Source: a virus. Taken from it: 64,000 bases of DNA. Below are positions 16,383 through 58,975 of this stretch, one piece after another. Both the position numbers and the translations under genes were made by a program. The notes below the pieces were generated by a model. The model was not told where the DNA came from. It searched no databases and worked only from the letters and a program-made list of their open reading frames with translations. Within the stretch, counting starts at the first letter, position 1; each line of letters opens with the position of its first letter. The DNA is taken from positions 1 through 64,000 of IMG/VR virus record IMGVR_UViG_3300038426_000075; one strand, written 5' to 3'.

Positions 16383-16655
16383 CTATCTTCCCCTTTTTTT
16401 CGCTTGCAGTGGTTTAGATTTTTTGATATTATGGTGCAAATCTTTATCATTATTAATAGGGAGTTTTTCGGGAGGCCAAATCTGGTGAACCGGTCGACCC
16501 ACGGCATCGGCGATCGCTTGTCGAATACGTGGATTTTTACGGAGGCCCTTGATAACAGAGTTGACGGCGGGAACTGTCATCTTCAATTTGTTGGCAATTG
16601 ATGTTTGGGTAACATCCAGCAGCTTCATGAGAATGATAATTTCTTTAGAGTTCAT
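16383..16655 (-). CDS. Cro/Ner-like HTH protein
   Basis: VTQTSIANKLKMTVPAVNSVIKG.RKNPRIRQAIADAVGRPVHQIWP; SD before ATG 16655. Confidence 0.85.
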   Translation of the reverse strand: MNSKEIIILMKLLDVTQTSIANKLKMTVPAVNSVIKGLRKNPRIRQAIADAVGRPVHQIWPPEKLPINNDKDLHHNIKKSKPLQAKKRGR

Positions 16656-16695
16656 AAGTTTCTTCCCCCTGTGATAAAAAGAATGGAGACAAGCC

Positions 16696-16944
16696 ATGTA
16701 TGCGCTCGTATTGATCGATATTTCCCCAAGATTCTTCGATAAGCTCGAATTATTGAGATTTTTAGAAAACATCGAAGAAAATGAGGCACAAGAGACAAAG
16801 GACTCAAAGATTCTCGAAGGCGTTTGGCTGATAGACCTAAGTAGACAACTATCTTTTCTCTGTAAAATCCTACGTGAGGTTCAAGGTCGTCATCTTTCAT
16901 ATAGGGTCTCCTTTTTCGAGAACAAACCGGAATTTATCATATGA
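16696..16944 (+). CDS. Small hypothetical protein inside the genetic switch
   Basis: 82-aa ORF with GGAG SD. Confidence 0.55.
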   Translation: MYALVLIDISPRFFDKLELLRFLENIEENEAQETKDSKILEGVWLIDLSRQLSFLCKILREVQGRHLSYRVSFFENKPEFII

Positions 16945-17008
16945 GAAGTTGCTTGGTTTTGGAGTTCATTCTGGTTAACTTTTAAAGCGTGTGTGACCAT
17001 GATTTAGA

Positions 17009-17057
17009 TATTTATCATTTTAGTTGTAATTTGTCAAGAAAAAAATATAACTAAAAT
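17009..17057 (-). promoter_or_regulatory. Lytic promoter and operator-like inverted repeat
   Basis: TTGACA (17032-17037) with 17-nt spacer to TAAATA; ATTTTAGTT (17017-17025) / AACTAAAAT (17049-17057) inverted pair in AT-rich divergent gap. Confidence 0.6.
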
Positions 17058-17074
17058 CATTTTTCTTGTAATGT

Positions 17075-17536
17075 ATGAAAACTAAAGAAGAAATACGCTC
17101 ACTTTTTTCAGCAAGATTACGTGAAATTGCCCAAAAAAGATTTGGTTATCAACCCGGAAAAGATCACGGAATGCGAACAGATATCGCAAATGAATTGAAG
17201 ATTAGTGTCGGAACGGTACAGCAGTGGTTTGATGAGGAAAAAGAAACTATGCCCGATGTTATGCAATTCCTTAAAATTCATGATGCCTTTGGAATTACCC
17301 CGAATGAACTTTTGGGGATTGAAGAGATACAACCTAAAGAATTCATTCCTCCTGTAGAAATTACAGAGGATTTTGTATCATTCCCAATACAAATATTTGA
17401 CTCAACCATTCAAACCGGTGGCCAATTCTTAGGGCAGGTCATCATTCACAAAAGGGTGTTTGGAAGAAGAAAAAACCTTGCTGCCGTTTACCTAAATGGG
17501 GGAAAAGAAATAAAAGTAGTGATTGTTGGAAAATGA
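17075..17536 (+). CDS. CI-like XRE repressor lacking an intact S24 peptidase domain
   Basis: HTH DIANELKISVGTVQQWF...MPD...FGITPNELLG; divergent from Cro-like gene. Confidence 0.85.
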   Translation: MKTKEEIRSLFSARLREIAQKRFGYQPGKDHGMRTDIANELKISVGTVQQWFDEEKETMPDVMQFLKIHDAFGITPNELLGIEEIQPKEFIPPVEITEDFVSFPIQIFDSTIQTGGQFLGQVIIHKRVFGRRKNLAAVYLNGGKEIKVVIVGK

Positions 17537-18300
17537 AAAGTATCTTAAAGGGCACAAAGAGAAAAACCCTACTTTCCGTATTGACAATCGTTGTCCTCTC
17601 TAGTTGTTCGGTCAATGATTTCTTTGGCCACCAAACCACACAATATATCGCCGTTAGAGAGGTAAAAGGCAAAAGTACGCTCAAAGGTACATACGATGTT
17701 GAGCGGGCACTTAGTGAGGGTGTTCCAGAAGAAGAGATAGCACGGTATCTTGCTATTACCCGCAACTTTGACGTTGATAGGTACATAAAGGCGGGCTTCA
17801 CATATAGGGAGATAATTGATTACCTTGCCAAGCAGCCTAAAATAGGCGGAGAAGTAAAGATAGAATGGAAACGTCACAAAATAGTGTACAAAGTCTATCC
17901 CGATAAACAGGATGTCGTCTATTGGGTAGAGACTTCCGATGGTAAAGAACGTTCTCCACTTTCTCGGGTTGGAAACTGCATTGTGGCGGATTCTGATAAT
18001 TGGGAGGGAGAGATGGATTATGGTTCTTGGCCCTGGCCAAGGAGAGTTGAAATTATTAATGGAAAGTCCAAATTTGATGGTCTTGAGTTGACGAAAGTTG
18101 GATGGTGGAAGTGGAATTTTGACAAGGAAAACTTTCAGGGTTCAGTAATTATCAGTACGACTTGGTTTGTGTGGAACAATCATTTGGTATGGATTCTATC
18201 GGGCATTGGGGTCCTTTTAATTATCCTATATGGTTGGCATTCCGATACCGAAGATAAGAAACGCAAGAGGCAGGAAGCAAGGCAAGCAAAGGAGGAATAG
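17533..18300 (+). CDS. Membrane lipoprotein carrying a copy of the ejection-protein N-terminal module; candidate superinfection exclusion
   Basis: Lipobox LSSC, C-terminal TM helix, aa 54-99 similar to N-terminus of 21152-26224 product. Confidence 0.75.
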   Translation: MKSILKGTKRKTLLSVLTIVVLSSCSVNDFFGHQTTQYIAVREVKGKSTLKGTYDVERALSEGVPEEEIARYLAITRNFDVDRYIKAGFTYREIIDYLAKQPKIGGEVKIEWKRHKIVYKVYPDKQDVVYWVETSDGKERSPLSRVGNCIVADSDNWEGEMDYGSWPWPRRVEIINGKSKFDGLELTKVGWWKWNFDKENFQGSVIISTTWFVWNNHLVWILSGIGVLLIILYGWHSDTEDKKRKRQEARQAKEE

Positions 18301-18304
18301 AGGA

Positions 18305-18577
18305 ATGAGAAAACCGAATTCGACTCAGAGAATATTTCAAGACAGGTTTATTGCGGAGGCAGAGCGGCGGCTGGGGATGGGTCGTTATCACCGAGGGTTT
18401 ATGACTGAGGTGACACGATCCCTCAAAATGAAGCAGGTCTCCGTGGTCCAGCGGTGGCTCGAAGGATGGATGCCACGGCTGCCCCATCTGTTAAAAATCT
18501 ACAGGGAGTGGGGAGTCACACCCAATAAATTGTTGGGGATTGAAGAGGAGTCACGATCCAGGCCAAAGCGGAAATGA
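18305..18577 (+). CDS. Second XRE HTH protein, paralogue of the repressor N-terminal domain
   Basis: VVQRWLEGWMP...LKIYREWGVTPNKLLGIEE vs TVQQWFDEEKETMP...LKIHDAFGITPNELLGIEE; SD before ATG 18305. Confidence 0.8.
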   Translation: MRKPNSTQRIFQDRFIAEAERRLGMGRYHRGFMTEVTRSLKMKQVSVVQRWLEGWMPRLPHLLKIYREWGVTPNKLLGIEEESRSRPKRK

Positions 18578-18601
18578 TTCGTTCCGCTCAAGGAGGTTTC
18601 T

Positions 18602-19048
18602 ATGAAAATTACAACCCTAAGTGCCTTTCTTATTGTCCTGCTTATTCTTCCTACCCCGATACTCGCTCAAAAAAATTACCTCATTATTGACGGGAAGAAA
18701 TACGAACTTGCTCCAGGACCAAGTTATTACGATGCCCATCCTGAAGAGAGAAACGCTACAACCCAACCCAACAAACCAATTGATGGCACTGGAACAAGAG
18801 AACAAGGGAATGAAGGAGGAAGCCATATCGATTACCCCTCGGCCCCTCCACCGCCACCCCCTTCATCTGCACCTCCTCCTCCATCTATGCGGATCGGCGT
18901 TCGTGGTGGAGTAATTGATGGCCAAACAGGGGATTTTTACCCACAAGTAAAAGGCGGTGTAGTTAATCCTCGAACCGGAGAATTTCTACCTGATGTTGAA
19001 AAAGGATATATTGATCTGGGAACAGGTGAATTCATCCCCAAGCGATAG
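18602..19048 (+). CDS. Exported Pro-rich protein carrying an ejection-protein peptide; candidate superinfection exclusion
   Basis: Signal peptide, PSYYDAHPEER motif, poly-Pro linker, three TG[DE]F.P repeats. Confidence 0.7.
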   Translation: MKITTLSAFLIVLLILPTPILAQKNYLIIDGKKYELAPGPSYYDAHPEERNATTQPNKPIDGTGTREQGNEGGSHIDYPSAPPPPPPSSAPPPPSMRIGVRGGVIDGQTGDFYPQVKGGVVNPRTGEFLPDVEKGYIDLGTGEFIPKR

Positions 19049-19051
19049 ATA

Positions 19052-20179
19052 ATGGCTTCAATCCAAAAATTCGCCAGGCTTGGCCACCGGATTTATTGGA
19101 GACTTTATCTTCCTGACGGCACATTTAAAGAAAAGTACAAAGCTTCCAGCTCCAAGACGGTCCTGCAGGAGATTCTTGCAGACATTATCAAGATCGAATC
19201 TCTTTCACGCCGGAGAGAACTATCGGGGCAGGATCTTGTCCGGGCCCTGAACATGGGGATCATCACTCGGGCCGAAATAGACTTCTTCAGACCTCACGTA
19301 GAACCCCTGGAACCACACTTTCTTGTGGAGTTGAGGCCGGAGTTCGAAAATCTCTCGAAAGCCCAATCAACAGCCCACCACACCCACATGGCCAACCTCT
19401 CCAAGGCAAACGTTATTGAGGAGTATTTCCGGGCCATTCCGATAAATGAGATCACGCCAGAGGCAATCGAAAGATTCAGGGTGGAACGGAAGCGAACGGT
19501 CACAAACACGACGGTCAACCACGACCTGAAGGTCCTCCGGAAGTATCTGGATATCGCCGTAAGCAAGAAATTGATCAAGAATAACTCGGCCAGAAAGACC
19601 ACACTTCTACGTGAACCAAAGGACAGAATTCCAAGGTGCTTCTACCCCGCTGAGTTAAAAACTTTCTTCCGGGGACTGAAAAGATTTAGACACCTCCTTT
19701 ATGGGGAGATGCCTTTTATTGTCCGTACCCTTATCTACACCGGCCTCAGAAGATCGGAACTTTGCAATCTGAAGCCCGAGAATATAAAGTTCCACCTTCG
19801 TCAGATCCATCTGATCGGCAAGGGCAGGAAGACCAGAATCGTAGGAATCCACCGATCACTTGTCAGGGAATTCAGAACCAGGATCAAAAAGGGTTACATC
19901 CTTCGACCCGGGATTGATCCGTCATCTATCAGCCATGCGTTTAAGAAAATGATTAGAGGTTTGGATCTTGCTGAAGCACTCACTCTGCATTCACTTCGTC
20001 ATACCTACATCTCTTATCTCCTTGAAAAAGGCGCCCCGACAAAGAAGGTCCAGGAGCACGCCGGCCACTTCAGCCTTGCCGTGACAGACCACTACACCCA
20101 TGCACTACCATCTGAGGTTGTGATTGAAGATATACTTGATTTTGAGGGTCCAAAAGTGGACAAAAGAGGCAAAAAATAG
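19052..20179 (+). CDS. int: Tyrosine integrase
   Basis: YTGLRRSEL, GKGRK, HSLRHTY, AGH, TDHY catalytic motifs. Confidence 0.95.
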   Translation: MASIQKFARLGHRIYWRLYLPDGTFKEKYKASSSKTVLQEILADIIKIESLSRRRELSGQDLVRALNMGIITRAEIDFFRPHVEPLEPHFLVELRPEFENLSKAQSTAHHTHMANLSKANVIEEYFRAIPINEITPEAIERFRVERKRTVTNTTVNHDLKVLRKYLDIAVSKKLIKNNSARKTTLLREPKDRIPRCFYPAELKTFFRGLKRFRHLLYGEMPFIVRTLIYTGLRRSELCNLKPENIKFHLRQIHLIGKGRKTRIVGIHRSLVREFRTRIKKGYILRPGIDPSSISHAFKKMIRGLDLAEALTLHSLRHTYISYLLEKGAPTKKVQEHAGHFSLAVTDHYTHALPSEVVIEDILDFEGPKVDKRGKK

Positions 20180-20891: not shown

Positions 20892-21155
20892 CTACAGACC
20901 CACCATTTTGAGAAAAGCTAAGGCCTTCTCAATTTTTTTATGGAAATGCGAAAGTTCTGTAATTGTTTCGACAGATCTCTTAAAAGATAACTTGGTGTTA
21001 ATTGTTTTAAAGGAATACTCCATGGCCGTAGAAGCCTCCCTTATGCTCGCTATACATTCATAAATCAGCCCGAGGGAACGATAGAACTTAAACGGGAAGG
21101 TGATTTTTAAATAAATTATTTTTAATGCTTTCCCAAGCCGTTTATGATTCATCAT
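20892..21155 (-). CDS. Hypothetical protein
   Basis: ORF coupled to upstream stop. Confidence 0.4.
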   Translation of the reverse strand: MMNHKRLGKALKIIYLKITFPFKFYRSLGLIYECIASIREASTAMEYSFKTINTKLSFKRSVETITELSHFHKKIEKALAFLKMVGL

Positions 21156-24100
21156 AGTCCCATGCCAGGAGGAAGATAGGATGGCGCCCCCTGCCCCGGA
21201 GGATGAACCCTCTTTTTGTCGTTTTCGCCCCTACCCATAAAGGCCGGAATAGCAAATGGAATGGCAGAATAAACCGGAGGAATTTGTACTTTTTCGGCAG
21301 CATATTTTCCCATGGCATCTGCCAAATTGCTTTGTGCCTTTTTTATGTCTTTAAAGAATCTATTATTCAAAGGAATGAGTTTCCCAAGTCTTTTGACAAT
21401 CCGGTCAATGATGTTTTTTGCAACGTTTACTACCTTCTTGAACAAAGAAGGCTCCCGATCATGTAAGATGTTCCAAAAATCCTTATTCATGAACTGCTGG
21501 CCAGAAAAATCAGCATAGAGTTCTTCTTTCACTTCTTCAGCACTTTCAAACCTCGGCATCCCAGATTGTTTCTTAGACAGATTTAAACCAACACGGTATA
21601 CGGAAAAATCTTGAATGAGATCGTCAGTCGCATCTATAAATTTTTTATAGAGAGTAGGCTGCTCACTTTTTAAGGTGTGTATAAGTTCATGTCCTATCAC
21701 AAAAAGATGGGGAGCACTAGATTTTATATGGAGATATATGGTGTCTGGTTCTTCGGGAATTACGATGCCATTAAAGGAGACTACTTCTTTTGTATCAAAG
21801 AAGACCACTTTTTTGCCGAAGGTCCGTCCAAGTTCACTAATAGCCTTCCCACTCTTAGGCACACGGACCTCGGCCAGGGCATCATCAGCCAGTTTTCTTC
21901 CGGTTGACGATTCAATTTCGGATTTGAGCTTTTTGATGGCTTCTGTAATCCCAATTTTTTTGATTTTTGACTCATCGAAGGCTCCTTTCATTTGCGATAT
22001 TTCTTTTGTCTCAAATTCCTTTTCATGGGCTTGAGCATATTTAATGGCATCGCCTTCAGTGTTTCTTGTCCCTGCCAATTCACCATCGGGTCGATAAATA
22101 TCAAATTTACCGGCAACTTCCTGAATTTTGTACCCTTCTGGGAGTTCTATCTTCGAGACATCTGAAAATGGAAATCTTCCCTTATTCTCTTCCCACCACT
22201 TGGCTGCCTTTTCTTCCGGCATTATAGCTTTATTAAAACGGATAGCTTGTGTGACCTCATCTCCGGTAGTCTTATCCTTACCCATAATATAAGAAACACC
22301 ATTCGTGCGGGATTTTCTGCGAAAATAGGAGACCCCTTTTATGTTGGTGCTTGGAAGAAGTCTGAATCTTCCCTCGTTTTCAGTTGAGTTGGGATCGAAG
22401 GTAAAAGGACGGGATTCGCCTTTTTTCCAGTTACCCGCTTTCTCCTCCACTGGTGCTGGCTCCAACTTCACGCCCGCAAATTTCTTGCTGGCCTCAAACT
22501 TGGCGGGGTCTTCCCGATATTCGTGCTCATCCTGGCTGGATAGCTTGTGAGCATCGGGATACTTCATTCCCTGGTTTATTATCCTGTCCCGCTCGGTCCC
22601 CTCGTGGACGATGATGGCGGTGCGCTCTTCGGGACTGATCTGGTCATCAACGGCAACGGTATTTTTAGGAAACCACTTATAGGCCCCATCATTACCGCCT
22701 TCTGTCCAGCTTGAATCGACTTTCCGAATCATGTCACCATCTACAAGCCAAACCTGTGTTTTATCCTTGCCGATTGTTCCTAAAAGCTGTTTTTTGGCAT
22801 CTTCAATAAGCTGTGGATTTAGTTTTTTATCTGATTTTTGGGGAGGGTTGTCTCTCGTTCGTTCCCGTTGCTCGATGGCATTCCCTTGTTTAAGAGCTTC
22901 ATCGTATGACTTCCCCTCAGACATCAATTGTCTTTGTTTGGTCGCATTGTCCAATAGATAACCATAGTCTGCGTTCTTAATCTCTTTATCGAGCCAAATC
23001 TCATTCTCTGGAATGTAGGGAGAATTTTGATGGTAGGAAAAATTGGTAAACTCCTCGTCAATATTTTTTCGGATAAGATCCCCATCAACAATAAAAGCTG
23101 TGACAGGGCCTTCTTTTTTGTATTCTTTGGCGTTTACTTGGGTGTGAAGATCGGCGGGGGATATCTCGGCCAGGGGTTCTTTTACGACGGGGGAAGTTTC
23201 GGATTCGGTGAGAGCTTTCTTAATTGCTTCAAGGTCTGGAGGTCCCTCTTCAGTCTCAATAGTTTTTTGAGCCTCTCCAAGTCTTCTGGTGATATTTTCT
23301 TCGGAGATTCCTTTTCCACGCTGTTCCTCCTTCCAACCCATTATCTCATTATCAACGCTTGCTGTCAAGGATTGAATAGCTTCTTTTTTGGATGTCCATA
23401 AATCCGCTTCCGCCCGATCTTGGATAATGGCATTGGCTGTCTGTTTTACTCTCTCAAAAATCTGCTGTTGGCGAAGTCCTAACTTTTCACCATTTAAGCC
23501 TTTATTGATCGCCTTTATGGTTTCTTCCTTTCCGGCAGATATCCCACCTAACATTTGTTGAATCTTCATTGAAGAACCATATCGTCCTTCACCTTCAGCA
23601 AGAACTCCTCCAGCCTCACCACTTTTAATGATACCTTGGAGTTCGCGAATCGTACCAGCTAGTTCTTCACCTAAAGGTTCAGCAAATGGCAACCTTGGAT
23701 ACGCCTTCTCCCTTTCAGCCTGAACCGCAGCCTTACCCGCTTCACCTAAAGGTGTCCCTTCAAGGGTAGGCGTAGCTCCCTCTTTGGCACCTTTCATCTC
23801 CAAACCTTGTTTGATGCCAGGGAGAGCAAATTGATCTTTAGCGGTCGGGGAGAGTGCGGGTTTCTCTATTGGAGCAATAGGTGCAGGTGCCCCCTCGATT
23901 TTCTCTGCTGGTACGAATTCCCCCGTCTTCTTCATTGTATATCCACTTATGGCCTTCTCGGGATCCAGCCCTTCGTCAGCGATAATTTGACCATGAACTG
24001 AATCCGTATAGACCTTTCCGTCCTGCATCACAGCTACCTTATCAATCTCTGGATACTCTTCTGGCATGAGCTCAAGGTGCTGAGCCGTCGGGGGAATTGC

Positions 24101-26224
24101 CTGAGTTGCAAGTGATTGCAAGTCGGGGTAGTCGGCTAAAACTTCGGGGGAGACGGGTTTGCCTTTTTCAACAGCATCCTGCACTTCATATTGATGGAGT
24201 GATCTTGCCGTTTTCTTATCAAGAGTACCTTCTGGGTTGCTAGGATCAATTGAGCGGTCAACAAATTCCTTTTTTGTCATCTCCCACGGTTGCTTTCCTA
24301 CCATATCTGCCAGATTGACAGTTTCTTCAAATCCCTTCTCTTTATGGTGTCTAAGTTCGTGATCAAGAGCCCTTTGGAAACCTTGTCTACTTAAATCCTT
24401 TCTTAGATAGATATTGCCCTCTGCATCATTTGTCGAACCTAATCCAGTCCCCTCAACACCTTTTGGGAGTTCAACTTCTTCAACCTTATAAACCTTATGG
24501 CCTTCTACCTCAAAATAGTCCGTAGATTGATTAGGAACCTGGGATTTAAAGCGATTAAATAGAGAATCATAATTAATAACCCCCTCCTCACTCACTGGCA
24601 TGCCCTCTTTTGAGACTTCTTGACCAGCAAGGGGTTCGGTAGCCTCCATAATCGGAAATTCTTCGGGTGGAAGTTTGGCCGCTTCCTCCATATCTTTACG
24701 GGCTATTTCAGTAATAATATTCTCTTTTGGCTTCGCAACCGTCGGCATTTGCTGCCCCATCCCCATCATCTGGGGGATTGGTTGAGGAATAGGGGCTTGA
24801 ATGGGTGGTGCTGTCGGTGTTGGCTGTGGAGGTAGAGCAATTGGACCGACTCCCATCGGCAGAATTGGCTGAGGTGCTTCAATCGGTGGTGCCTCTGGCC
24901 GTGGAGCGATAGATGATGCCGGCGGCATGGTGGTTCCGACAGGTTCTGGTGTCTCGGTCCCAATTCCAGGAGGTCTTACCGGTTCTGGTTCTCCCGTAAT
25001 AGGGTTAATTTTAAACTCTGTTCCAACGGGAGCTTTTAGCCGCAAGATCGTCTTGGGTTTGGGTTCCATTAGCTGAAAACCTTGGCCTGGAGGCAATGCC
25101 AATTGAGCTCCTGCCTTTATTTCTGTAGCCGGTTGAACTGCTGGAGTCCCGGGGGCAGGAATCGTCGAGCCGACAACTTCTGGAACTTCCGGCGCCATCC
25201 CAGGAGGAGTAATTTGTGGACTCTCTGCGGGCTTGCCTGCCTCTGCAAAGGGAGGATATTCCTCTCCTTTGTTCCTTCGTCTCAGAGCCTCTTCCCTCCA
25301 CGATGGATTGTTCCAACGCCTTAGAACATCGCCTTCGGAATATCCCTTGTTCATCATGTCCTCAAGAGACTGTGTAACAAGACCACGTTCCTTATTTGTA
25401 AGGCTTCTAAGCCAAGGACCTATTGGCGTTTTTAAAAATCTGGTTAATACCGCTGGTAGTACTTCCTCCGCAATGGTACCAGCCGCTCTCATAGCAGTTG
25501 GAAAAGCTGCCCATTCCGCAGCAGTCATTGTTTCTTTTGCCAAGGATTCATAGGGAGAAATCTTCTTTTTCCCAGTAACCAATTCTTTCTCGATCTCTTT
25601 CAATTTCTCTGGATCAGTTGTCGTCCCAGGGGGGAAAAAGTCTCCCTTTAATTCTGCTCGACCTTCCTCTCCTGCATATTTCCCAAAGGGAATCGTAAAT
25701 TTTGCCACTTCCAATGCTGTCGGCGGAATCGCAGCCAAATAGGGATGGCGAGCAGCAAAGGGAGAAGTGACAACTTTAGGTTCGACAACGGGAGGCACCT
25801 TTGGTGTCGGCTTTACTGGCTCATGCGAAGGAATGGGTTCCTCTTTCGGAAATCCCGACAAATCAACTCCTGCTTCCGCAGGTGTTTCACGTGCAACCAC
25901 AGCTGTCATTGGAGAAGGCTTCGGTCTCTCTATCGGCTTCATGAGGTTCGGGTTGATCAAACCGGGAGGGGTGATAGGTGACACTGTTCGTTCCGGGACA
26001 AGAGGGGTAGGGGACTTCTCAACGATCGGTTTAGGCAAGGCTTCCTGTACGGTAGGTTTTGCTACAATACTCTTTTGAGGAGCGAGGTATTCGATGACCT
26101 CCCGATAGGGGACTCCTGCCTTCACAGCATCATCAAGCCGATAGTTTCTAGTTGCGGCCAGATGCTTAGCTATCTCTTCTTCTGGTACTCCATCCTTAAG
26201 TGCCTGCTCATAATTATATGGCAT
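21152..26224 (-). CDS. Large polyvalent / internal virion (ejection) protein with zincin-like domains
   Basis: 1690 aa, Pro-rich linkers, HELRH and HELIH...EELYAD motifs, tandem VDGD repeat; last large gene after tail genes. Confidence 0.75.
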   Translation of the reverse strand: MPYNYEQALKDGVPEEEIAKHLAATRNYRLDDAVKAGVPYREVIEYLAPQKSIVAKPTVQEALPKPIVEKSPTPLVPERTVSPITPPGLINPNLMKPIERPKPSPMTAVVARETPAEAGVDLSGFPKEEPIPSHEPVKPTPKVPPVVEPKVVTSPFAARHPYLAAIPPTALEVAKFTIPFGKYAGEEGRAELKGDFFPPGTTTDPEKLKEIEKELVTGKKKISPYESLAKETMTAAEWAAFPTAMRAAGTIAEEVLPAVLTRFLKTPIGPWLRSLTNKERGLVTQSLEDMMNKGYSEGDVLRRWNNPSWREEALRRRNKGEEYPPFAEAGKPAESPQITPPGMAPEVPEVVGSTIPAPGTPAVQPATEIKAGAQLALPPGQGFQLMEPKPKTILRLKAPVGTEFKINPITGEPEPVRPPGIGTETPEPVGTTMPPASSIAPRPEAPPIEAPQPILPMGVGPIALPPQPTPTAPPIQAPIPQPIPQMMGMGQQMPTVAKPKENIITEIARKDMEEAAKLPPEEFPIMEATEPLAGQEVSKEGMPVSEEGVINYDSLFNRFKSQVPNQSTDYFEVEGHKVYKVEEVELPKGVEGTGLGSTNDAEGNIYLRKDLSRQGFQRALDHELRHHKEKGFEETVNLADMVGKQPWEMTKKEFVDRSIDPSNPEGTLDKKTARSLHQYEVQDAVEKGKPVSPEVLADYPDLQSLATQAIPPTAQHLELMPEEYPEIDKVAVMQDGKVYTDSVHGQIIADEGLDPEKAISGYTMKKTGEFVPAEKIEGAPAPIAPIEKPALSPTAKDQFALPGIKQGLEMKGAKEGATPTLEGTPLGEAGKAAVQAEREKAYPRLPFAEPLGEELAGTIRELQGIIKSGEAGGVLAEGEGRYGSSMKIQQMLGGISAGKEETIKAINKGLNGEKLGLRQQQIFERVKQTANAIIQDRAEADLWTSKKEAIQSLTASVDNEIMGWKEEQRGKGISEENITRRLGEAQKTIETEEGPPDLEAIKKALTESETSPVVKEPLAEISPADLHTQVNAKEYKKEGPVTAFIVDGDLIRKNIDEEFTNFSYHQNSPYIPENEIWLDKEIKNADYGYLLDNATKQRQLMSEGKSYDEALKQGNAIEQRERTRDNPPQKSDKKLNPQLIEDAKKQLLGTIGKDKTQVWLVDGDMIRKVDSSWTEGGNDGAYKWFPKNTVAVDDQISPEERTAIIVHEGTERDRIINQGMKYPDAHKLSSQDEHEYREDPAKFEASKKFAGVKLEPAPVEEKAGNWKKGESRPFTFDPNSTENEGRFRLLPSTNIKGVSYFRRKSRTNGVSYIMGKDKTTGDEVTQAIRFNKAIMPEEKAAKWWEENKGRFPFSDVSKIELPEGYKIQEVAGKFDIYRPDGELAGTRNTEGDAIKYAQAHEKEFETKEISQMKGAFDESKIKKIGITEAIKKLKSEIESSTGRKLADDALAEVRVPKSGKAISELGRTFGKKVVFFDTKEVVSFNGIVIPEEPDTIYLHIKSSAPHLFVIGHELIHTLKSEQPTLYKKFIDATDDLIQDFSVYRVGLNLSKKQSGMPRFESAEEVKEELYADFSGQQFMNKDFWNILHDREPSLFKKVVNVAKNIIDRIVKRLGKLIPLNNRFFKDIKKAQSNLADAMGKYAAEKVQIPPVYSAIPFAIPAFMGRGENDKKRVHPPGQGAPSYLPPGMGL

Positions 26225-48056: not shown

Positions 48057-48133
48057 TGGTAGCGGGAGCCAGATTCGCACTGGCGACCTCCGGGGTATGA
48101 GCCCGGCGCGCTTACTGCCTGCGCCATCCCGCA
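48057..48133 (-). tRNA. tRNA-Met(CAU), initiator-like
   Basis: Full cloverleaf, encoded CCA, CAT anticodon, three G:C pairs at end of anticodon stem, U1:U72 mismatch. Confidence 0.88.
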
Positions 48134-48492: not shown

Positions 48493-48734
48493 GCCTCTCT
48501 CCAAATTCCTTTTTCAAGAAACCCATGCCATTTATGTTCACCCTCATCGAGCAGAATCGAAGGTGAAACTGTTATTGTTCCATCCTCATGCTCGGTAACT
48601 TCATGATTGATTAAACTTCCCATATGGCATCCAGGTGGTCTCATATACCATGTGCCGTACTTATCCTTCCCATACTCACCCTCACACAAAAGAAGGTTTC
48701 CCTTTTCGTCTGGATAAGCCCTTCGCCCAATCAT
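48489..48734 (-). CDS. DUF6527-like small protein
   Basis: DGTITVSPSIL...WHGFLEKGIW. Confidence 0.65.
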   Translation of the reverse strand: MIGRRAYPDEKGNLLLCEGEYGKDKYGTWYMRPPGCHMGSLINHEVTEHEDGTITVSPSILLDEGEHKWHGFLEKGIWREA

Positions 48735-48976
48735 CTCCCCTTCCTCTTCTTTGGGGCATATGAACTCAGGGACGATCCTCGACCGATCGATGGAAACTTA
48801 GCCTTTACCGCAGCCCTAACTCTCGATTCAACCGGCTTACCAGAGGCTCGAGCCAATGCATTCCTAGCATGGCTAATATTTTGAATCGGATATGAGCCTG
48901 ATCCTGGTGCCTTGCTTGGTATCGCAAATTGACTCTTGGAAAGTTTTTTCCTTTCGGAATAGCTTAACTTTGCCAT
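48731..48976 (-). CDS. Small basic protein
   Basis: RKKL..SQFAIP...YPI....HARNALAR. Confidence 0.7.
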   Translation of the reverse strand: MAKLSYSERKKLSKSQFAIPSKAPGSGSYPIQNISHARNALARASGKPVESRVRAAVKAKFPSIGRGSSLSSYAPKKRKGR

Positions 48977-49002
48977 TTCATTCCTCCTGAGGAACATTGA
49001 AA

Positions 49003-49305
49003 TTAAACAGGAATTCTCTTCTTACCCCTCTTTGCCTTCTTGCCAGTCGGCATGAATCCCGCCAAAGGCGTACCTCTCATTTTCATAACCTTCGATCTCC
49101 CGGGAGAAACAGGCCCGCCTTTAGCCCTCGGAATTAACGGCTCTTTTAGCTGACGAACTGCCCACGGTTTTGGACCCGTATAAGGAAGAGCAACTCCTCC
49201 CTGTGCAACACGATCTTTCATGCTCTTTCCGTAAGGTTTGTACTTCGGTACAGGAGTGCTGACTCCAATAGCTTCGTTATACTTTTCAAACGGATCTCTT
49301 GCCAT
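49003..49305 (-). CDS. Small basic protein
   Basis: K/R/P-rich; paralogous C-terminus with next ORF. Confidence 0.6.
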   Translation of the reverse strand: MARDPFEKYNEAIGVSTPVPKYKPYGKSMKDRVAQGGVALPYTGPKPWAVRQLKEPLIPRAKGGPVSPGRSKVMKMRGTPLAGFMPTGKKAKRGKKRIPV

Positions 49306-49327
49306 CGTCTTTCCCCTTCACTTGAAA

Positions 49328-49567
49328 TTAGACTGCAAGCCTCTTCTGGCCTTTCTTTCCCCGCTTCGCCTTTTTGGGTGAAGGCATAAATGCAGAAAGC
49401 GGCCTTCCCCTCGTTTTCATCAGGGACCGTCCGGGGAGTCCAGTCATAGGTGCAGCACCTAGACCGGATGCGGGTGGTGACGCTGGCATAGGCATTCTAC
49501 CAGCCATGGGATTCATTCCCGGGGTACTCGGTCCTCCAAGCGGAATTCGTTGCTTTTTTCTAGCCAT
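49328..49567 (-). CDS. Small basic protein
   Basis: K/R/P/M-rich; paralogous C-terminus. Confidence 0.6.
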   Translation of the reverse strand: MARKKQRIPLGGPSTPGMNPMAGRMPMPASPPASGLGAAPMTGLPGRSLMKTRGRPLSAFMPSPKKAKRGKKGQKRLAV

Positions 49568-49571
49568 TTCA

Positions 49572-49748
49572 TTACCTCCCTTTCTTTTTTTTCTTCTTAT
49601 AGGGCAACCCCTTATCGGGTGTTGCTGCGAAATCGTGTAGGGCTACTCCGGTCATCTTGAGAATCCCCCGATTCTTCTTATAGACCTTCTCGGGATGATG
49701 TTCGGCAAGTCTGGCCAACCTGCCCATTGCTATTGATTCTGCTGGCAT
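49572..49748 (-). CDS. DUF3008-like small basic protein
   Basis: MPAES...LHDFAAT..KGLP. Confidence 0.65.
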   Translation of the reverse strand: MPAESIAMGRLARLAEHHPEKVYKKNRGILKMTGVALHDFAATPDKGLPYKKKKKKGR

Positions 49749-55748: not shown

Positions 55749-57167
55749 CTAAAAGTGAAAGTCGTCTCCCTTCATGGCGTTCACTTCTTTGATAATTTGA
55801 AGCACATCCGTCTCGAACTTTGCAGGAAACGAGCTATTGGACATCTCGATCTGGGAAGCGATCTTACCGGCCGCATCCACTGCGGCTTTCGGAGTCTTCC
55901 CGTGGCCCATGGCGGTCGCAACTACCTGATCGCCGGGAACAAACCAATAGTCTCCCGCCTTCCTTACGATGCGCCTAAAGCCCATGTCTTTTCTTATTTC
56001 TTGAGGAAAGTGGATCACCTCCCATGATTTGATATCGTCGGTGTAAACGCCGACCTGTGTGACGTATCCAGGATCCACTTCGGCCCGAACGTCCTGACCG
56101 GCCGCAATCTTGTAGGTATATTCGGGATAATTCTTTATGAATCTGGATTGGATCGCACCGCAGGGCCACGCATCACGAGAGGTTGGATCGTGGACTCTAA
56201 CTTTCCTTCCGTCCCAAAAGAATTCGAAGCTGATATTCCCATGGTAACCAGACTTGATCAGGGAAGGCTTTACTTTGTTGAGAATATGCTCATCGATCCC
56301 ATTTTCTTCCACCCAAACTCCGATGGTTCCCTCTCCTTTGACTTCTATCGTGTAGAGGAAGGGCCGGATATAATCCCTTCCATTGAAACCTACGTCAACA
56401 CCCAATTCGAGGCCTGGACACGCACGCTGGATCAGGATCTCCATGGTGGTAAGATATGGCCCAAAACCGGCCTGTGTAAGAGCCACGAGGGCCTGTGTTC
56501 GGGTCTTTACCCCCTTCCCCGTCTCTTTATTGCCTCGATATTCGCCAACCTTCGGGAAGAAGAGCGTCTTTCCATCCTCGTTCTTTTCGATGTAATCAAG
56601 GCACTCATCCAAACCATGAACCACGACACCATCAGGGACCCCCACACCCATCTCTTGGAGCCTCTGCCATCCCTTCACACGATTGTTTTCATTCTCTGCC
56701 CACCACGCAGAAGGTCCATAAACGTCTTTGCCTTCTCCACGCCAGATATCGGCATCCTTGCCAAAGCAACAGTCGGTAATGACAACAAAATCCTTGGAGG
56801 CAGCCTCCATCATGCTATCCACCTTATGGAGTCCCTTAAACCCATCTCCTGAAATTTTGTTCTCAATGGACGGGTAGGCCGCCGCGCCGGCAATAAAATA
56901 ATAGACTTCGAACTCCTTCATCAGTGCAAGGGCATGATCAATACCCAGGTTCGTATCGATGAAGCCAACGGTCCGCGGCATCCCATGTTCTCGCTTAAGC
57001 ATAGGAAGAGCTTTGGTCGCTTTTGCTGTCTGATAATTGGCGATTTCTGCATAGGAATATCCTTCTTTGTGCGCCTCTTCGACCTTAAAACCCGTAAATC
57101 CAGCGAGATAAAAAGCTATCTCCCGGTATGAATGACCCTCTTTTCTTTGGCCTTCAACATCGTACAT
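55749..57167 (-). CDS. PurD-like ATP-grasp enzyme with N-terminal ejection-protein-type module
   Basis: VYGPS....ENNR..G...QEMGV.VP, TGKGV, GLELGVD; aa 2-47 match the shared YDVE..G..EIA.YLA module. Confidence 0.7.
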   Translation of the reverse strand: MYDVEGQRKEGHSYREIAFYLAGFTGFKVEEAHKEGYSYAEIANYQTAKATKALPMLKREHGMPRTVGFIDTNLGIDHALALMKEFEVYYFIAGAAAYPSIENKISGDGFKGLHKVDSMMEAASKDFVVITDCCFGKDADIWRGEGKDVYGPSAWWAENENNRVKGWQRLQEMGVGVPDGVVVHGLDECLDYIEKNEDGKTLFFPKVGEYRGNKETGKGVKTRTQALVALTQAGFGPYLTTMEILIQRACPGLELGVDVGFNGRDYIRPFLYTIEVKGEGTIGVWVEENGIDEHILNKVKPSLIKSGYHGNISFEFFWDGRKVRVHDPTSRDAWPCGAIQSRFIKNYPEYTYKIAAGQDVRAEVDPGYVTQVGVYTDDIKSWEVIHFPQEIRKDMGFRRIVRKAGDYWFVPGDQVVATAMGHGKTPKAAVDAAGKIASQIEMSNSSFPAKFETDVLQIIKEVNAMKGDDFHF

Positions 57168-58975
57168 TATTGCCCCTCGAATGCGGAAAGAGGTCTACGC
57201 GTAGGCTCCCCTTCACCAGGGGCCAAAGCCCCAGGAACCAAACCAGCCCCACCGACAGCCGGCGGAGGTGCTTGATCAATTGCCATTGCTTGGTCATCCG
57301 TCATAATGAAGTCCGGGTCATGAAACCCGAACGCATTAACTTCGTGTTTCAGAAGCTTATACGGTTTAAAATACTTACCGAACGTAGAGCTTTCTGCCTG
57401 CTTAAGGAAGGCTTGATACATTTGAATAAGCTGACTATTCTTGATTGCCGCAGATATCCCCATGATCTTAATATCGCAATTGGCCCTCAACATCTCCTTG
57501 CGTTGTTCGATGGACATCTGAGCGAACTTTTGAGCATTGGGATTGTTTCGCATAACACGGGAAATACTGGGATCTGAGTATTCGTTCCAGTTCAGGATCA
57601 CTACTTCCAAGGCAGCTCTAATCGTATCGACCGCACCTTCTTCGATATCCTCACCTATTGAATCGAAGACTGTCATAGACTGACCGAGCAATATCTCAGC
57701 CTCTCCCTTTGTTTTCTGGCTTTTAGTTCCACGTTGACCAGCTGCTAATTGAGTAAGCATTGAGGAAGCTTCCCGGCGCTGGTCCCAATGTTGAAGCGTG
57801 GCCAGCGTTTCGTTGCTTGAGGGACTCGTGTAGACCTCCTTGACTACCTGCTGGCCAGGCGGGACATCTGGGTTTATAAATACCGTCTTACCAGGAAACA
57901 TGGCGACATCGGTAGGATCCTCGAGACTCATTCGTTTTATCTCTCGAAGTTTATTGACCCGCCACGAGAGATCGTCAATATGGAGGCTCATCAAGTTGCA
58001 GCTGTTAAGCCACAGAAGAAGAGAGGTCTCGATAACGCCATGTCCCTCAAACGTAAATAAATCTGGAAGGGGAGAAAAAGATATGCCTGGCCATCTCATC
58101 GTAACGAAGGGGTTGGGTTCCGGATTCCGGATCAAAACATCTCCAGCCACGGTAAACCTGGCGTTATCGAGGAGGAGTTCTCCCGACTTATCCAAAATAA
58201 CGCCCCAATGCTCAATCAGTCTCACGGCTTTCCTGAAGGTACTTCTTTGGTAATACTGACCTTTCCTGCGGGCCCGTCTTTCGGCAGTTTCCTGTCCCCA
58301 GTTTGCTTCACTGGCTGTGACCTCATCTAACCTTACGTACCGTGGACCGAGCTTTTTAACCTTCCATAAATCAAGCCACTCCACATGATCCCAGTAATCT
58401 CCCGACTGTGGCTCCCGTGGCGTCGCATCCGGGTCACGATAGATCTGCCATGGAGGGACGAGGGAAAACATCAATCCCTTTCCGGGGACCCATCGTGGAA
58501 TTATCTCATGGGATTGACCGATCGCAAAGCCAAGTTCTGTTCCATCAGAAAACGCAGTATCTAAACGGGCGTGTTGAGGATTGAACCAAAACTCAGAAGC
58601 CTCTCTAAGGAAAGAGGCAATCCATTTTTCATTCTCATCATCTGGATTTACCGCCTCGATTTTATACCAATCTGGCTGGCGAAGTGCTTTTCGGATAATC
58701 GCTACTCCCTGTTTAACCGTGGAGGTCATATCCCCAGTTGTCATCTTGGCCTGCCACTCTTCTTTTTCGGAATAATCAATATCTGCCTTGTAGGCCCTAT
58801 AGCACTGATCCCAGAGATATCTGACTTCTATGTTGGCTTGCTCACTCTCGTTTATGCAGGAATGAGCAAAATCAACATAGGTATCGGGGTCCTCCTCACC
58901 ATAAGCCGCTGCAGCTTCAGCCCTCTCCTCGAGTTCCTGATCGTCTATCCCTTGAAGCCCTTCGTCATTCGCCAT
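57167..58975 (-). CDS. Portal protein
   Basis: 602 aa; VPPWQIYRDPDA, IRNPEPNPF...P, EGHG, KTKGEAEIL; first large gene of head module. Confidence 0.85.
   Translation of the reverse strand: MANDEGLQGIDDQELEERAEAAAAYGEEDPDTYVDFAHSCINESEQANIEVRYLWDQCYRAYKADIDYSEKEEWQAKMTTGDMTSTVKQGVAIIRKALRQPDWYKIEAVNPDDENEKWIASFLREASEFWFNPQHARLDTAFSDGTELGFAIGQSHEIIPRWVPGKGLMFSLVPPWQIYRDPDATPREPQSGDYWDHVEWLDLWKVKKLGPRYVRLDEVTASEANWGQETAERRARRKGQYYQRSTFRKAVRLIEHWGVILDKSGELLLDNARFTVAGDVLIRNPEPNPFVTMRWPGISFSPLPDLFTFEGHGVIETSLLLWLNSCNLMSLHIDDLSWRVNKLREIKRMSLEDPTDVAMFPGKTVFINPDVPPGQQVVKEVYTSPSSNETLATLQHWDQRREASSMLTQLAAGQRGTKSQKTKGEAEILLGQSMTVFDSIGEDIEEGAVDTIRAALEVVILNWNEYSDPSISRVMRNNPNAQKFAQMSIEQRKEMLRANCDIKIMGISAAIKNSQLIQMYQAFLKQAESSTFGKYFKPYKLLKHEVNAFGFHDPDFIMTDDQAMAIDQAPPPAVGGAGLVPGALAPGEGEPTRRPLSAFEGQ

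What the first reader, a model, noticed from the sequence alone, without database searches (positions are those of the whole stretch)
17692..17829. Lipoprotein carries a 46-aa copy of the N-terminus of the 1690-aa ejection-type protein
Seen: YDVERALSEGVPEEEIARYLAITRNFDVDRYIKAGFTYREIIDYLA aligns ungapped with YNYEQALKDGVPEEEIAKHLAATRNYRLDDAVKAGVPYREVIEYLA (26081-26218, - strand), 28/46 identical by hand count. A 17-nt identical DNA stretch (CCAGAAGAAGAGATAGC) is shared. The module is itself a tandem of two ~25-aa units. It lies between a lipobox (LSSC) and a C-terminal TM helix, so it is predicted periplasmic and membrane-tethered. Inference: intragenomic capture of a virion interaction module, reused as a dominant-negative.
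Basis: partly seen in the sequence, partly recalled or inferred. Interest (0 to 1): 0.88.

Follow-up and report, generated by a model that had tools for sequence, protein, structure and literature searches.

The report
Prophage lipoprotein displaying an ejection-protein head domain
A temperate phage from peat encodes, next to its repressor, a membrane-anchored lipoprotein carrying a diverged copy of the small helical domain that heads the phage's own giant, probably injected protein, so it may block entry of related phages by mimicry, though this is untested.

Summary
Lipoprotein residues 54-104 align ungapped with residues 3-53 of the 1690-aa protein (30/51 identical, E 2e-16).

The module is a four-helix double hairpin with no Pfam, PHROG or PDB match. 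In 207 of 231 database hits it starts within the first 15 residues, on more than 50 unrelated proteins. These include giant polyvalent proteins and the gp16-position ejection protein of P22-like prophages. This genome holds three copies; the third heads an ATP-grasp enzyme coupled to the portal gene.

In the lipoprotein family the module is an insert: seven homologues have it and three lack exactly it. It is old and under purifying selection (dN 0.36, dS at least 1), and it has been swapped between lipoprotein cores.

A new lead: genes just upstream of module genes end in an RPPLSSF-like tail, and here the portal ends RRPLSAFEGQ. This suggests a head-to-tail docking pair.

The gene lies in a repressor-to-integrase operon. 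Superinfection exclusion by a periplasmic decoy is therefore the best reading, at about 0.5 and unproven. No binding, expression or virion data exist.

This scan has noted analogous decoys in five other genomes. Those are AI notes, not independent evidence.

The parts
17533..18300 (+). Lipoprotein gene, 255 aa. Its start overlaps the stop of the upstream XRE/cI-like gene (ATGA).
   Evidence: ten homologues, all from metagenomes; no Pfam, PHROG or PADLOC family
17533..17607 (+). Signal peptide with lipobox LSSC (Cys25)
   Evidence: Read directly. The Cys is nearly invariant, and the homologues have L-S-G-C or L-F-G-C.
17692..17844 (+). Inserted double-hairpin module, residues 54-104
   Evidence: pLDDT is 79-88 with four helices. 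The segment is absent from P0009-P0011.
17845..18165 (+). Trp-rich, beta-predicted core domain. This is the conserved part of the lipoprotein family.
   Evidence: invariant W, C and N positions. The AF2 model is low confidence here.
18166..18297 (+). C-terminal transmembrane helix (residues 212-237) and basic cytoplasmic tail
   Evidence: Kyte-Doolittle scan. KKRKR follows the helix.
26066..26218 (-). The same module at residues 3-53 of the 1690-aa protein
21152..26224 (-). 1690-aa polyvalent-type protein, the last gene of the late operon. It has Pro-rich linkers and two HExxH motifs.
   Evidence: It shares mosaic segments with P0013, P0014 and P0015, of which P0013 and P0015 were scanned and carry MTase, Eco57I and ResIII domains.
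57030..57167 (-). Third module copy, at the N-terminus of a 472-aa ATP-grasp-like protein (55749..57167)
57170..57199 (-). Portal C-terminal tail RRPLSAFEGQ, directly upstream of the third module gene. It is a candidate docking peptide.
17075..17536 (+). XRE/cI-like repressor, first gene of the lysogeny operon
   Evidence: phrog_8 at 1e-8; HTH_3 weak
16383..16772 (-). Divergent Cro-like HTH gene
   Evidence: phrog_769 at 2e-6
19052..20179 (+). Tyrosine integrase, last gene of the same-strand block
   Evidence: PF00589 at 2e-21; phrog_1 at 4e-43

Best explanation
The gene encodes a prophage envelope protein that is most likely made in the lysogen. It lies in the repressor-to-integrase block and its start overlaps the repressor gene's stop. 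The protein has an N-terminal lipid anchor and a C-terminal transmembrane helix. Its periplasmic part displays a roughly 50-aa double helical hairpin, which is otherwise the N-terminal 'head' domain of phage proteins delivered with the DNA (polyvalent and ejection proteins). Proposed mechanism: in virion proteins the head domain docks onto a short C-terminal tail of a partner protein, of the type RPPLSSF. In P22-like phages the partner is the gp20-like ejection protein; here it is the portal, possibly with some small head proteins. The membrane-tethered copy would compete for that tail, or for whatever the head binds, when a related phage ejects its proteins into the periplasm. The DNA conduit or the delivery of the giant protein would then fail, giving type-specific superinfection exclusion. 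Shown: the homology, the insertion, the predicted topology, purifying selection, the N-terminal position and contexts of the family, and the association between tail motif and module genes. Inferred: expression in lysogens, presence of the 1690-aa protein in virions, head-tail binding, and the exclusion phenotype.
For: (1) Homology of 30/51, E 2e-16, with three copies in the 88-kb genome. (2) Seven lipoprotein homologues carry the module and three lack exactly it. On the core tree this needs only one change, though the branch is weakly supported (69/35). (3) The lipoprotein modules nest inside the clade of giant polyvalent N-termini, and the window's copy groups with its own phage's lineage at 95/80. 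(4) dN 0.36 against dS 1.0-1.6. (5) The module starts within the first 15 residues in 207 of 231 hits, on more than 50 unrelated C-terminal regions. The carriers include ART-PolyVal, MTase, helicase and SLT proteins. (6) In prophages of 23 bacterial genomes the module gene directly follows phrog_2534 'released upon infection', transglycosylase or TMP-like genes, and one of these prophages has a true P22 portal. (7) Twelve of 17 coupled upstream genes end in the strict tail motif, against 3 of 362 other ORFs, and the other five have near variants. The window's portal ends RRPLSAFEGQ just before the module-bearing ATP-grasp gene. A homologue without the module has a partner with a different tail. 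(8) Five bacterial genomes hold the module only once each, in the prophage, so it is not a general cellular domain. (9) The context is Cro-like, XRE, lipoprotein, XRE paralogue, exported protein, integrase. This is the position of known exclusion genes such as ltp (PMC3952083). P22 SieA shows that a prophage-encoded inner-membrane protein can block entry by acting on ejection proteins gp16 and gp20 (PMC10883804). (10) The module has been swapped between lipoprotein cores: P0008 is sister to P0006 in the core tree but groups with P0005/P0007 in the module tree.
Against: There is no experimental or expression evidence of any kind. The conserved core of the lipoprotein family works without the module in three homologues, so the module may be only an accessory. 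The tail motif was defined after seeing the data, and the upstream genes are partly homologous, so the Fisher p-value is inflated. The 565-aa protein directly upstream of the 1690-aa gene lacks the strict motif (it has only APLGFAG). In this phage the clearest tail is on the portal, which stays outside the infected cell, so it is unclear which incoming component the decoy would meet. Monophyly of the lipoprotein modules is not rejected (AU p 0.21), so repeated capture is not shown. The host and its envelope type are unknown. A diderm host is inferred only from relatives: a spanin in L007 and prophages in Acidobacteriota and Proteobacteria.
Confidence: 0.5

Rival explanations
1. The lipoprotein is a lysogenic-conversion or exclusion factor whose activity lies in the Trp-rich core domain and transmembrane helix. 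The module is only an accessory, for example for localisation, oligomerisation or spacing, drawn from the phage domain pool. Its likeness to the 1690-aa protein would then reflect shared ancestry, not functional mimicry.
For: Three homologues keep the core and transmembrane helix without the module. One of them sits after a spanin gene in another temperate phage. The conserved residues of the module are mostly core hydrophobics and a capping box (G-Y-S-x-x-E-I), i.e. structural positions. Other exported or membrane proteins also carry the module (P0049, P0071, P0214, P0240, and RDD proteins).
Against: The module is otherwise almost confined to the extreme N-terminus of phage-delivered proteins, and occurs once per bacterial genome, in the prophage. 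The lipoprotein copies are nearest to the polyvalent-protein subclade, including the phage's own. The module is swapped among cores, as expected for a specificity cassette.
Confidence: 0.3
2. The module binds a host envelope component such as peptidoglycan or an inner-membrane protein. Ejected proteins would use it to anchor in the periplasm, and the lipoprotein would mask or occupy that host target rather than bind phage parts.
For: Some carriers have lytic transglycosylase domains (PF01464 in P0227; an LT_GEWL protein in BFVD). Signal-peptide and transmembrane-anchored variants place the module in the periplasm.
Against: Many carriers are cytoplasm-acting enzymes: ATP-grasp, methyltransferase, helicase and ADP-ribosyltransferase. 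Five bacterial genomes hold no copy of the module outside the prophage gene. The tight link with a C-terminal tail motif on the neighbouring phage protein points to a phage partner. No likeness to known peptidoglycan-binding folds was found, though this is weak evidence.
Confidence: 0.12
3. The lipoprotein acts in the phage's own lytic cycle, in assembly, lysis timing or release, rather than in the lysogen.
For: A homologue without the module lies next to a lysis gene in L007. No expression data exist.
Against: Here the gene is translationally coupled to the cI-like repressor gene, on the strand opposite to all late genes, between the genetic switch and the integrase. An exported module could not meet cytoplasmic assembly partners.
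Confidence: 0.05

Closest known systems
Ltp of Streptococcus thermophilus phage TP-J34 (Pfam PF07553; PMC3952083, which cites Bebeacua 2013)
   Same: A lipoprotein encoded in the lysogeny module. It has a small tandem-repeat domain outside the membrane that blocks DNA injection by acting on a virion protein that enters the envelope (the tape measure protein).
   Different: There is no sequence relationship: PF07553 does not match even at E 10. Ltp has no C-terminal transmembrane helix, and its host is Gram-positive. Its repeat domain is not reported to be a copy of a phage virion protein.
P22 SieA (Leavitt et al. 2024, PMC10883804)
   Same: [quoted passage not shown] Escape mutations map to ejection proteins gp16 and gp20, the same pair of gene positions where the module (gp16 position) and the tail motif (gp20 position) are found here.
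   Different: No homology was detected: the lipoprotein has no PHROG hit. SieA is not a lipoprotein and is not reported to carry a copy of an ejection-protein domain.
Polyvalent proteins of phages and conjugative elements (Iyer et al. 2017, PMC5512222)
   Same: The 1690-aa protein and its relatives are giant mosaic proteins encoded in late operons. Relatives carry ART-PolyVal, adenine methylase, helicase and HExxH modules.
   Different: The text passages I searched in that paper name MuF and the C-terminal region of N4 vRNAP in connection with the phage head or encapsidation, and do not describe this N-terminal double hairpin. I could not read its LPD supplement. No Pfam LPD model matches the module.
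MuF-type N-terminal packaging domain fused to variable effectors (discussed in PMC5512222)
   Same: The same architectural logic: a fixed N-terminal domain followed by highly variable C-terminal cargo, encoded next to the portal gene.
   Different: The domain is unrelated and much smaller (about 50 aa), and no structural or biochemical data exist for it.

Membership tests
Ltp-type exclusion lipoproteins (PF07553) | Ltp repeat domain detectable by PF07553 | tested here: not met
   No hit in a Pfam scan at E 0.1, and none in the whole 88-kb genome at E 10.
Ltp-type exclusion lipoproteins (PF07553) | Signal peptide with lipobox; gene in the lysogeny module | tested here: met
   LSSC with conserved Cys25. 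The gene lies between the cI-like gene and the integrase.
Ltp-type exclusion lipoproteins (PF07553) | Blocks DNA injection by binding the tape measure protein | not testable with these tools
   Needs infection assays.
P22 SieA-type exclusion proteins | Sequence homology to one of the SieA types | tested here: inconclusive
   No PHROG family matched at E 0.01. No SieA sequence was compared directly.
P22 SieA-type exclusion proteins | Prophage-encoded inner-membrane protein | tested here: met
   Predicted only: hydrophobic stretch 212-237 followed by KKRKR; prophage lysogeny operon.
N-terminal double-hairpin head domain (unnamed family defined here) | Two tandem units of about 23-25 aa, [FY][DN]-x4-A-x-K-x-G-[YV]-s-x-x-E-I-x-x-[YH]-L, folding as four helices | tested here: met
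   HMM E 1e-37 for both window copies. Family alignment. AF2 pLDDT 83.
N-terminal double-hairpin head domain (unnamed family defined here) | Position at the extreme N-terminus of the carrier protein | tested here: not met
   Met for the 1690-aa and 472-aa proteins. In the lipoprotein the module is internal (residues 54-104), after the signal peptide. This is the atypical, exported context seen in about 10% of hits.
Polyvalent proteins (for the 1690-aa protein) | Several unrelated effector domains in one polypeptide, encoded with virion genes | tested here: inconclusive
   Late-operon position. Two HExxH motifs. Mosaic homology to P0013 and P0015, which carry MTase, Eco57I and ResIII domains. 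The protein itself has no Pfam domain above cut-off.
P22 gp16-position ejection proteins (for the 1690-aa protein) | Gene follows gp7-like (phrog_598) and gp20-like (phrog_2534) genes | tested here: not met
   phrog_2534 has no match in this genome at E 1. Other family members do meet this feature.
DUF3153 / LppM lipoproteins with a C-terminal transmembrane helix (for the core domain) | PF11353 or PF21946 match | tested here: inconclusive
   The ESM Atlas gives DUF3153 clusters at 0.86-0.88, which is a lead only. PF11353 does not match at E 10. PF21946 was not searched on its own and did not appear in the Pfam scan at E 0.1.

The most novel reading that the evidence does not exclude
Temperate phages run a modular 'mimicry immunity'. 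Ejected and cargo proteins are joined head to tail by a small N-terminal double hairpin that docks on an RPPLSSF-type C-terminal tail. Prophages export membrane-tethered copies of the head domain as type-specific decoys, and swap them between lipoprotein scaffolds to reset which rivals are excluded. In this phage two such cassettes, each an XRE gene plus an exported mimic, sit side by side in the lysogeny operon.
Probability: 0.3. Interest if true: 0.85.

Novelty: new variant of a known kind. Interest (0 to 1): 0.66.

Why it matters
If the reading is right, it adds a mechanism to superinfection exclusion: blocking entry with a copy of the invader's own assembly domain. It would also give a sequence-readable specificity code (head type and tail type) that predicts which phages exclude which.

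Independently of the decoy idea, the work defines an unannotated domain. It marks the N-terminus of many phage-delivered proteins, including polyvalent giants, transglycosylase-bearing ejection proteins and packaged enzymes. It has a candidate partner motif on portal and ejection-protein tails. That makes the long-open question of how cargo proteins are addressed to the capsid and arranged for ejection directly testable.

Tried and rejected
Among them is the 92-kb contig of P0003. Pairing of lipoprotein and giant protein across phages therefore could not be tabulated.
- IMG/VR scans found no relatives, either with the lipoprotein alignment, with the two-copy module alignment or with P0107. The 15-row alignment was too divergent for pattern search.
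- The first GTDB scan, with the lipoprotein alignment, found nothing.
- Cultured-phage tblastn with a module protein and with the 1690-aa protein gave no match.
- Complex prediction of the lipoprotein ectodomain with the N-terminus of the 1690-aa protein gave no verdict (score 0.00). This is not evidence either way.
- The fold search of the full lipoprotein model was dominated by the C-terminal helix. The fold search of the module alone found nothing in the PDB (best Z 3.4).
- A profile search of PDB sequences hit only designed helical repeat proteins.
- PADLOC gave no hits.
- Searches of this genome with PF07553, PF11353, phrog_739 and phrog_2534 gave no matches.
- No RNA holder was listed among sequencing runs. 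Contigs from four peat runs were nearly identical to the window, so no population-level dN/dS was possible.
- I considered that the tail motif might be a by-product of a ribosome-binding site for the coupled downstream gene. I rejected this because P-P-L-S-S-F codons are not purine-rich and the motif lies 3-13 codons before the stop.
- Chance or compositional similarity was rejected (E 2e-16; the family is conserved).

Full report
**Observation**

The window is the first 64 kb of an 88,038-bp IMG/VR virus record, estimated 94% complete.

ORF 17533..18300 (+) encodes a 255-aa protein. ORF 21152..26224 (-) encodes a 1690-aa protein. BLASTP aligns lipoprotein residues 54-104 with residues 3-53 of the giant protein. 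The alignment has no gaps, 30/51 identities and E 2e-16. The shared 17-nt run is real. At 63% nucleotide identity it is only marginally unexpected.

The two codon sets differ at 16 of the 30 identical residues. dN is 0.36 and dS is 1.0-1.6, i.e. saturated. The copies are therefore old paralogues kept by purifying selection, not a recent duplication.

**The lipoprotein**

- Residues 1-25 form a signal peptide with lipobox LSSC.
- Residues 212-237 are hydrophobic and are followed by KKRKR.
- This puts residues 26-211, including the module, outside the cytoplasmic membrane, whether or not the signal peptide is cleaved.

A search of 5.8 billion proteins found nine homologues, all from metagenomes. 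Six of them carry the module. Three lack exactly the segment between TQYIAVKE and WKxSHKIVYKV. A tree of the core, with the module columns removed, needs only one gain or loss, though the branch is weakly supported (69/35).

One module-less homologue lies in another temperate phage, after an Rz-like spanin and before primase, integrase and repressor genes. The scaffold is thus a mobile phage moron. The spanin suggests that relative infects a diderm host.

The core has no Pfam, PHROG or PADLOC family. An ESM Atlas lead to DUF3153/LppM-type lipoproteins was not confirmed.

**The module**

AlphaFold models it confidently as four helices, i.e. two helix-turn-helix hairpins. pLDDT is 79-88 in the context of the lipoprotein and 83 for the module alone. 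No solved structure resembles it (best Z 3.4). A sequence profile hits only designed helical repeats in the PDB. Pfam gives only sub-threshold DUF5338 hits.

An HMM of the two copies, run against 1.84 billion representatives, found 116 proteins at E below 1e-3. A broader profile found 258 more candidates. Findings from these hits:

- In 207 of 231 hits the module begins within the first 15 residues.
- The carriers range from 44 to 5678 aa and fall into more than 50 unrelated groups beyond the module.
- The giant carriers have ART-PolyVal, methyltransferase, Eco57I-type methylase and ResIII helicase domains. They are polyvalent proteins in the sense of Iyer et al. 2017 (PMC5512222).
- Other carriers have SLT or LT_GEWL transglycosylase domains.
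- The window's 1690-aa protein shares mosaic segments with these giants, including both termini. It also has two HExxH motifs.

A third copy in this genome heads a 472-aa ATP-grasp-like protein, whose gene overlaps the portal gene's stop.

**Genomic context of the family**

A scan of GTDB genomes found 23 loci in Acidobacteriota, Burkholderiales, Gemmatimonadota, Alphaproteobacteria and others.

- In most loci the module gene is translationally coupled to a same-strand upstream gene.
- The upstream genes that could be annotated hit phrog_2534 ('released from the phage upon host infection'), a transglycosylase family, or tape-measure-like families.
- In an IMG/VR contig, a homologue of a module-bearing protein follows phrog_598 ('DNA ejection') and phrog_2534. 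This is the P22 gene order 7-20-16.
- One of the prophages has a bona fide P22-type portal (PF16510, E 2e-152).
- In five bacterial genomes the module occurs exactly once, in the prophage.

The module therefore marks phage proteins of the ejection or cargo class. It is not shown by any data on this phage's virions, and phrog_2534 itself has no match in this genome.

**A candidate partner motif**

Earlier notes of this scan on other genomes reported that the C-terminal tail of the neighbouring ejection protein switches together with the head peptide. Prompted by this, I inspected the C-termini of the coupled upstream genes.

- Twelve of 17 carry P-x(0,1)-[LI]-[SDEG]-[SATNQ]-F within their last 40 residues, typically RPPLSSF followed by 1-13 residues.
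- Only 3 of 362 other ORFs in the same loci carry it. The remaining five upstream genes have near variants.
- The p-value (2e-16) is inflated, because the motif was defined after seeing the data and the upstream genes are partly homologous. However, those genes belong to different families and range from 77 to 823 aa.
- In the window, the strict motif occurs in only two real genes. One is the portal, which ends RRPLSAFEGQ immediately before the module-bearing ATP-grasp gene. The other is a small late protein (49331..49642).
- Relaxed variants end two neighbouring small proteins and occur twice inside the 953-aa protein.
- Where a gp16-position homologue lacks the module, the homologous upstream protein ends in a different tail.

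This suggests, but does not prove, that the double hairpin docks on such tails. That would tether cargo to the portal crown or link successive ejection proteins.

**Relationship between the lipoprotein modules and the virion modules**

In a tree of 47 modules, the seven lipoprotein copies fall inside the subclade of giant polyvalent N-termini.

- The window's copy and P0003 group with P0018, beside the clade that holds the phage's own 1690-aa protein (95/80).
- P0005, P0007 and P0008 group near P0017 and P0097.
- A single origin of the lipoprotein modules is not rejected (AU p 0.21).
- P0008's core is sister to P0006 (99/98), yet its module groups with P0005/P0007 (100/90). The module has therefore been exchanged between scaffolds.
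- P0003 carries a second inserted repeat (DPKFxALPxEEQ). This repeat also accompanies the module in an unrelated membrane protein, P0049.

**Local context**

A Cro-like gene (16383..16772, -) faces a same-strand block:

- XRE/cI-like gene (17075..17536)
- the lipoprotein
- an XRE paralogue (18305..18577, 36% identical to the first)
- a signal-peptide protein (18602..19048)
- a tyrosine integrase (19052..20179)

The second exported protein shares 11 of 15 residues with the 953-aa late protein (E 6e-5 for the pair). This is a short match, but it parallels the lipoprotein case.

**Interpretation**

The best-supported reading (about 0.5) is a superinfection-exclusion protein that displays a decoy copy of the ejection or cargo head domain at the periplasmic face of the inner membrane. 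The decoy would compete for the head's partner when a related phage ejects its proteins.

Functionally this resembles Ltp, a lysogeny-module lipoprotein with a repeat domain that targets the tape measure protein (PMC3952083). It also resembles P22 SieA, an inner-membrane protein whose escape mutations lie in gp16 and gp20 (PMC10883804). It is a sequence member of neither family.

The main rival (about 0.3) is that the core domain does the work and the module is an accessory. A host-target-masking variant (about 0.12) and a lytic-cycle role (about 0.05) are less likely.

**Weak points**

- There are no expression, virion or binding data.
- The host is unknown.
- In this phage the clearest tail is on the portal, which does not enter the cell.
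- The 565-aa neighbour of the giant protein lacks the strict motif.

**Occurrence and relation to earlier notes**

The phage DNA is present, nearly identical, in at least five peat metagenome runs.

This scan has recorded analogous 'membrane decoy copies the end of the giant ejected protein' cases in five other genomes. Those are AI notes, not independent evidence, but they indicate that the theme recurs.

Noticed in passing
window 55749-57167 (-): A 472-aa ATP-grasp-like protein (ESM Atlas: biotin-carboxylase/GARS_A-like phage clusters) carries the same N-terminal double hairpin. Its gene overlaps the portal gene's stop, so an enzyme appears to be addressed like virion cargo.
   Followed up: partly
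window 57170-57199 (-); 48734-49642 (-); loci L014-L035: A C-terminal tail motif [RK]P[PS]L[SD]SF ends the gene just upstream of module genes in 12 of 17 loci, with near variants in the other 5, against 3 of 362 other ORFs. Here the portal ends RRPLSAFEGQ, and three small tandem late proteins end in ...PL[SA][GSA][FY][MA]P...KK.
   Followed up: partly
window 18305-19048 (+) and 27903-30764 (-): A second cassette: an XRE paralogue (36% identical to the first) followed by a 148-aa signal-peptide, Pro-rich protein. That protein shares LxPxPxYYDxHPEER (11/15) with residues 487-501 of the 953-aa late protein.
   Followed up: partly
P0003 (lipoprotein homologue) and P0049: P0003 has an extra insert of about 70 aa made of a DPKFxALPxEEQ/DPDFAGLPxxEQ repeat. 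The same repeat precedes the double-hairpin module in P0049, an unrelated protein with predicted N- and C-terminal transmembrane segments. These scaffolds seem to collect short modules.
   Followed up: no
L032:9395-10585 (Alphaproteobacteria MAG): A signal-peptide protein with two or three internal module copies. Its C-terminal part looked trypsin-like to my eye, but it has no Pfam hit. The gene is followed by an integrase and an IS91-type transposase.
   Followed up: partly
window 21152-21280 (-), C-terminus of the 1690-aa protein: The last 40 or so residues (…PPGQGAPSYLPPGMGL) are conserved at 51-63% identity in the otherwise mosaic giants P0013, P0014 and P0015. Both ends of these proteins are therefore fixed while the middle is shuffled.
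   Followed up: no
L013:8079-11239: A gp16-position homologue without the module begins with a different helical motif (LQQLETALVNADKAGDQDAARKLAAVI). Its gp20-like neighbour ends ...ADEINSLVDKYTRPQ instead of RPPLSSF, so head and tail types appear to switch together.
   Followed up: partly
window 48057-48133 (-): A tRNA-Met (CAT) gene sits inside the late structural operon.
   Followed up: no
window 17000-19100: Contigs from four further peat metagenome runs match this region with 0-1 differences each. The phage is widespread and clonal across samples from 2018 and 2020.
   Followed up: partly
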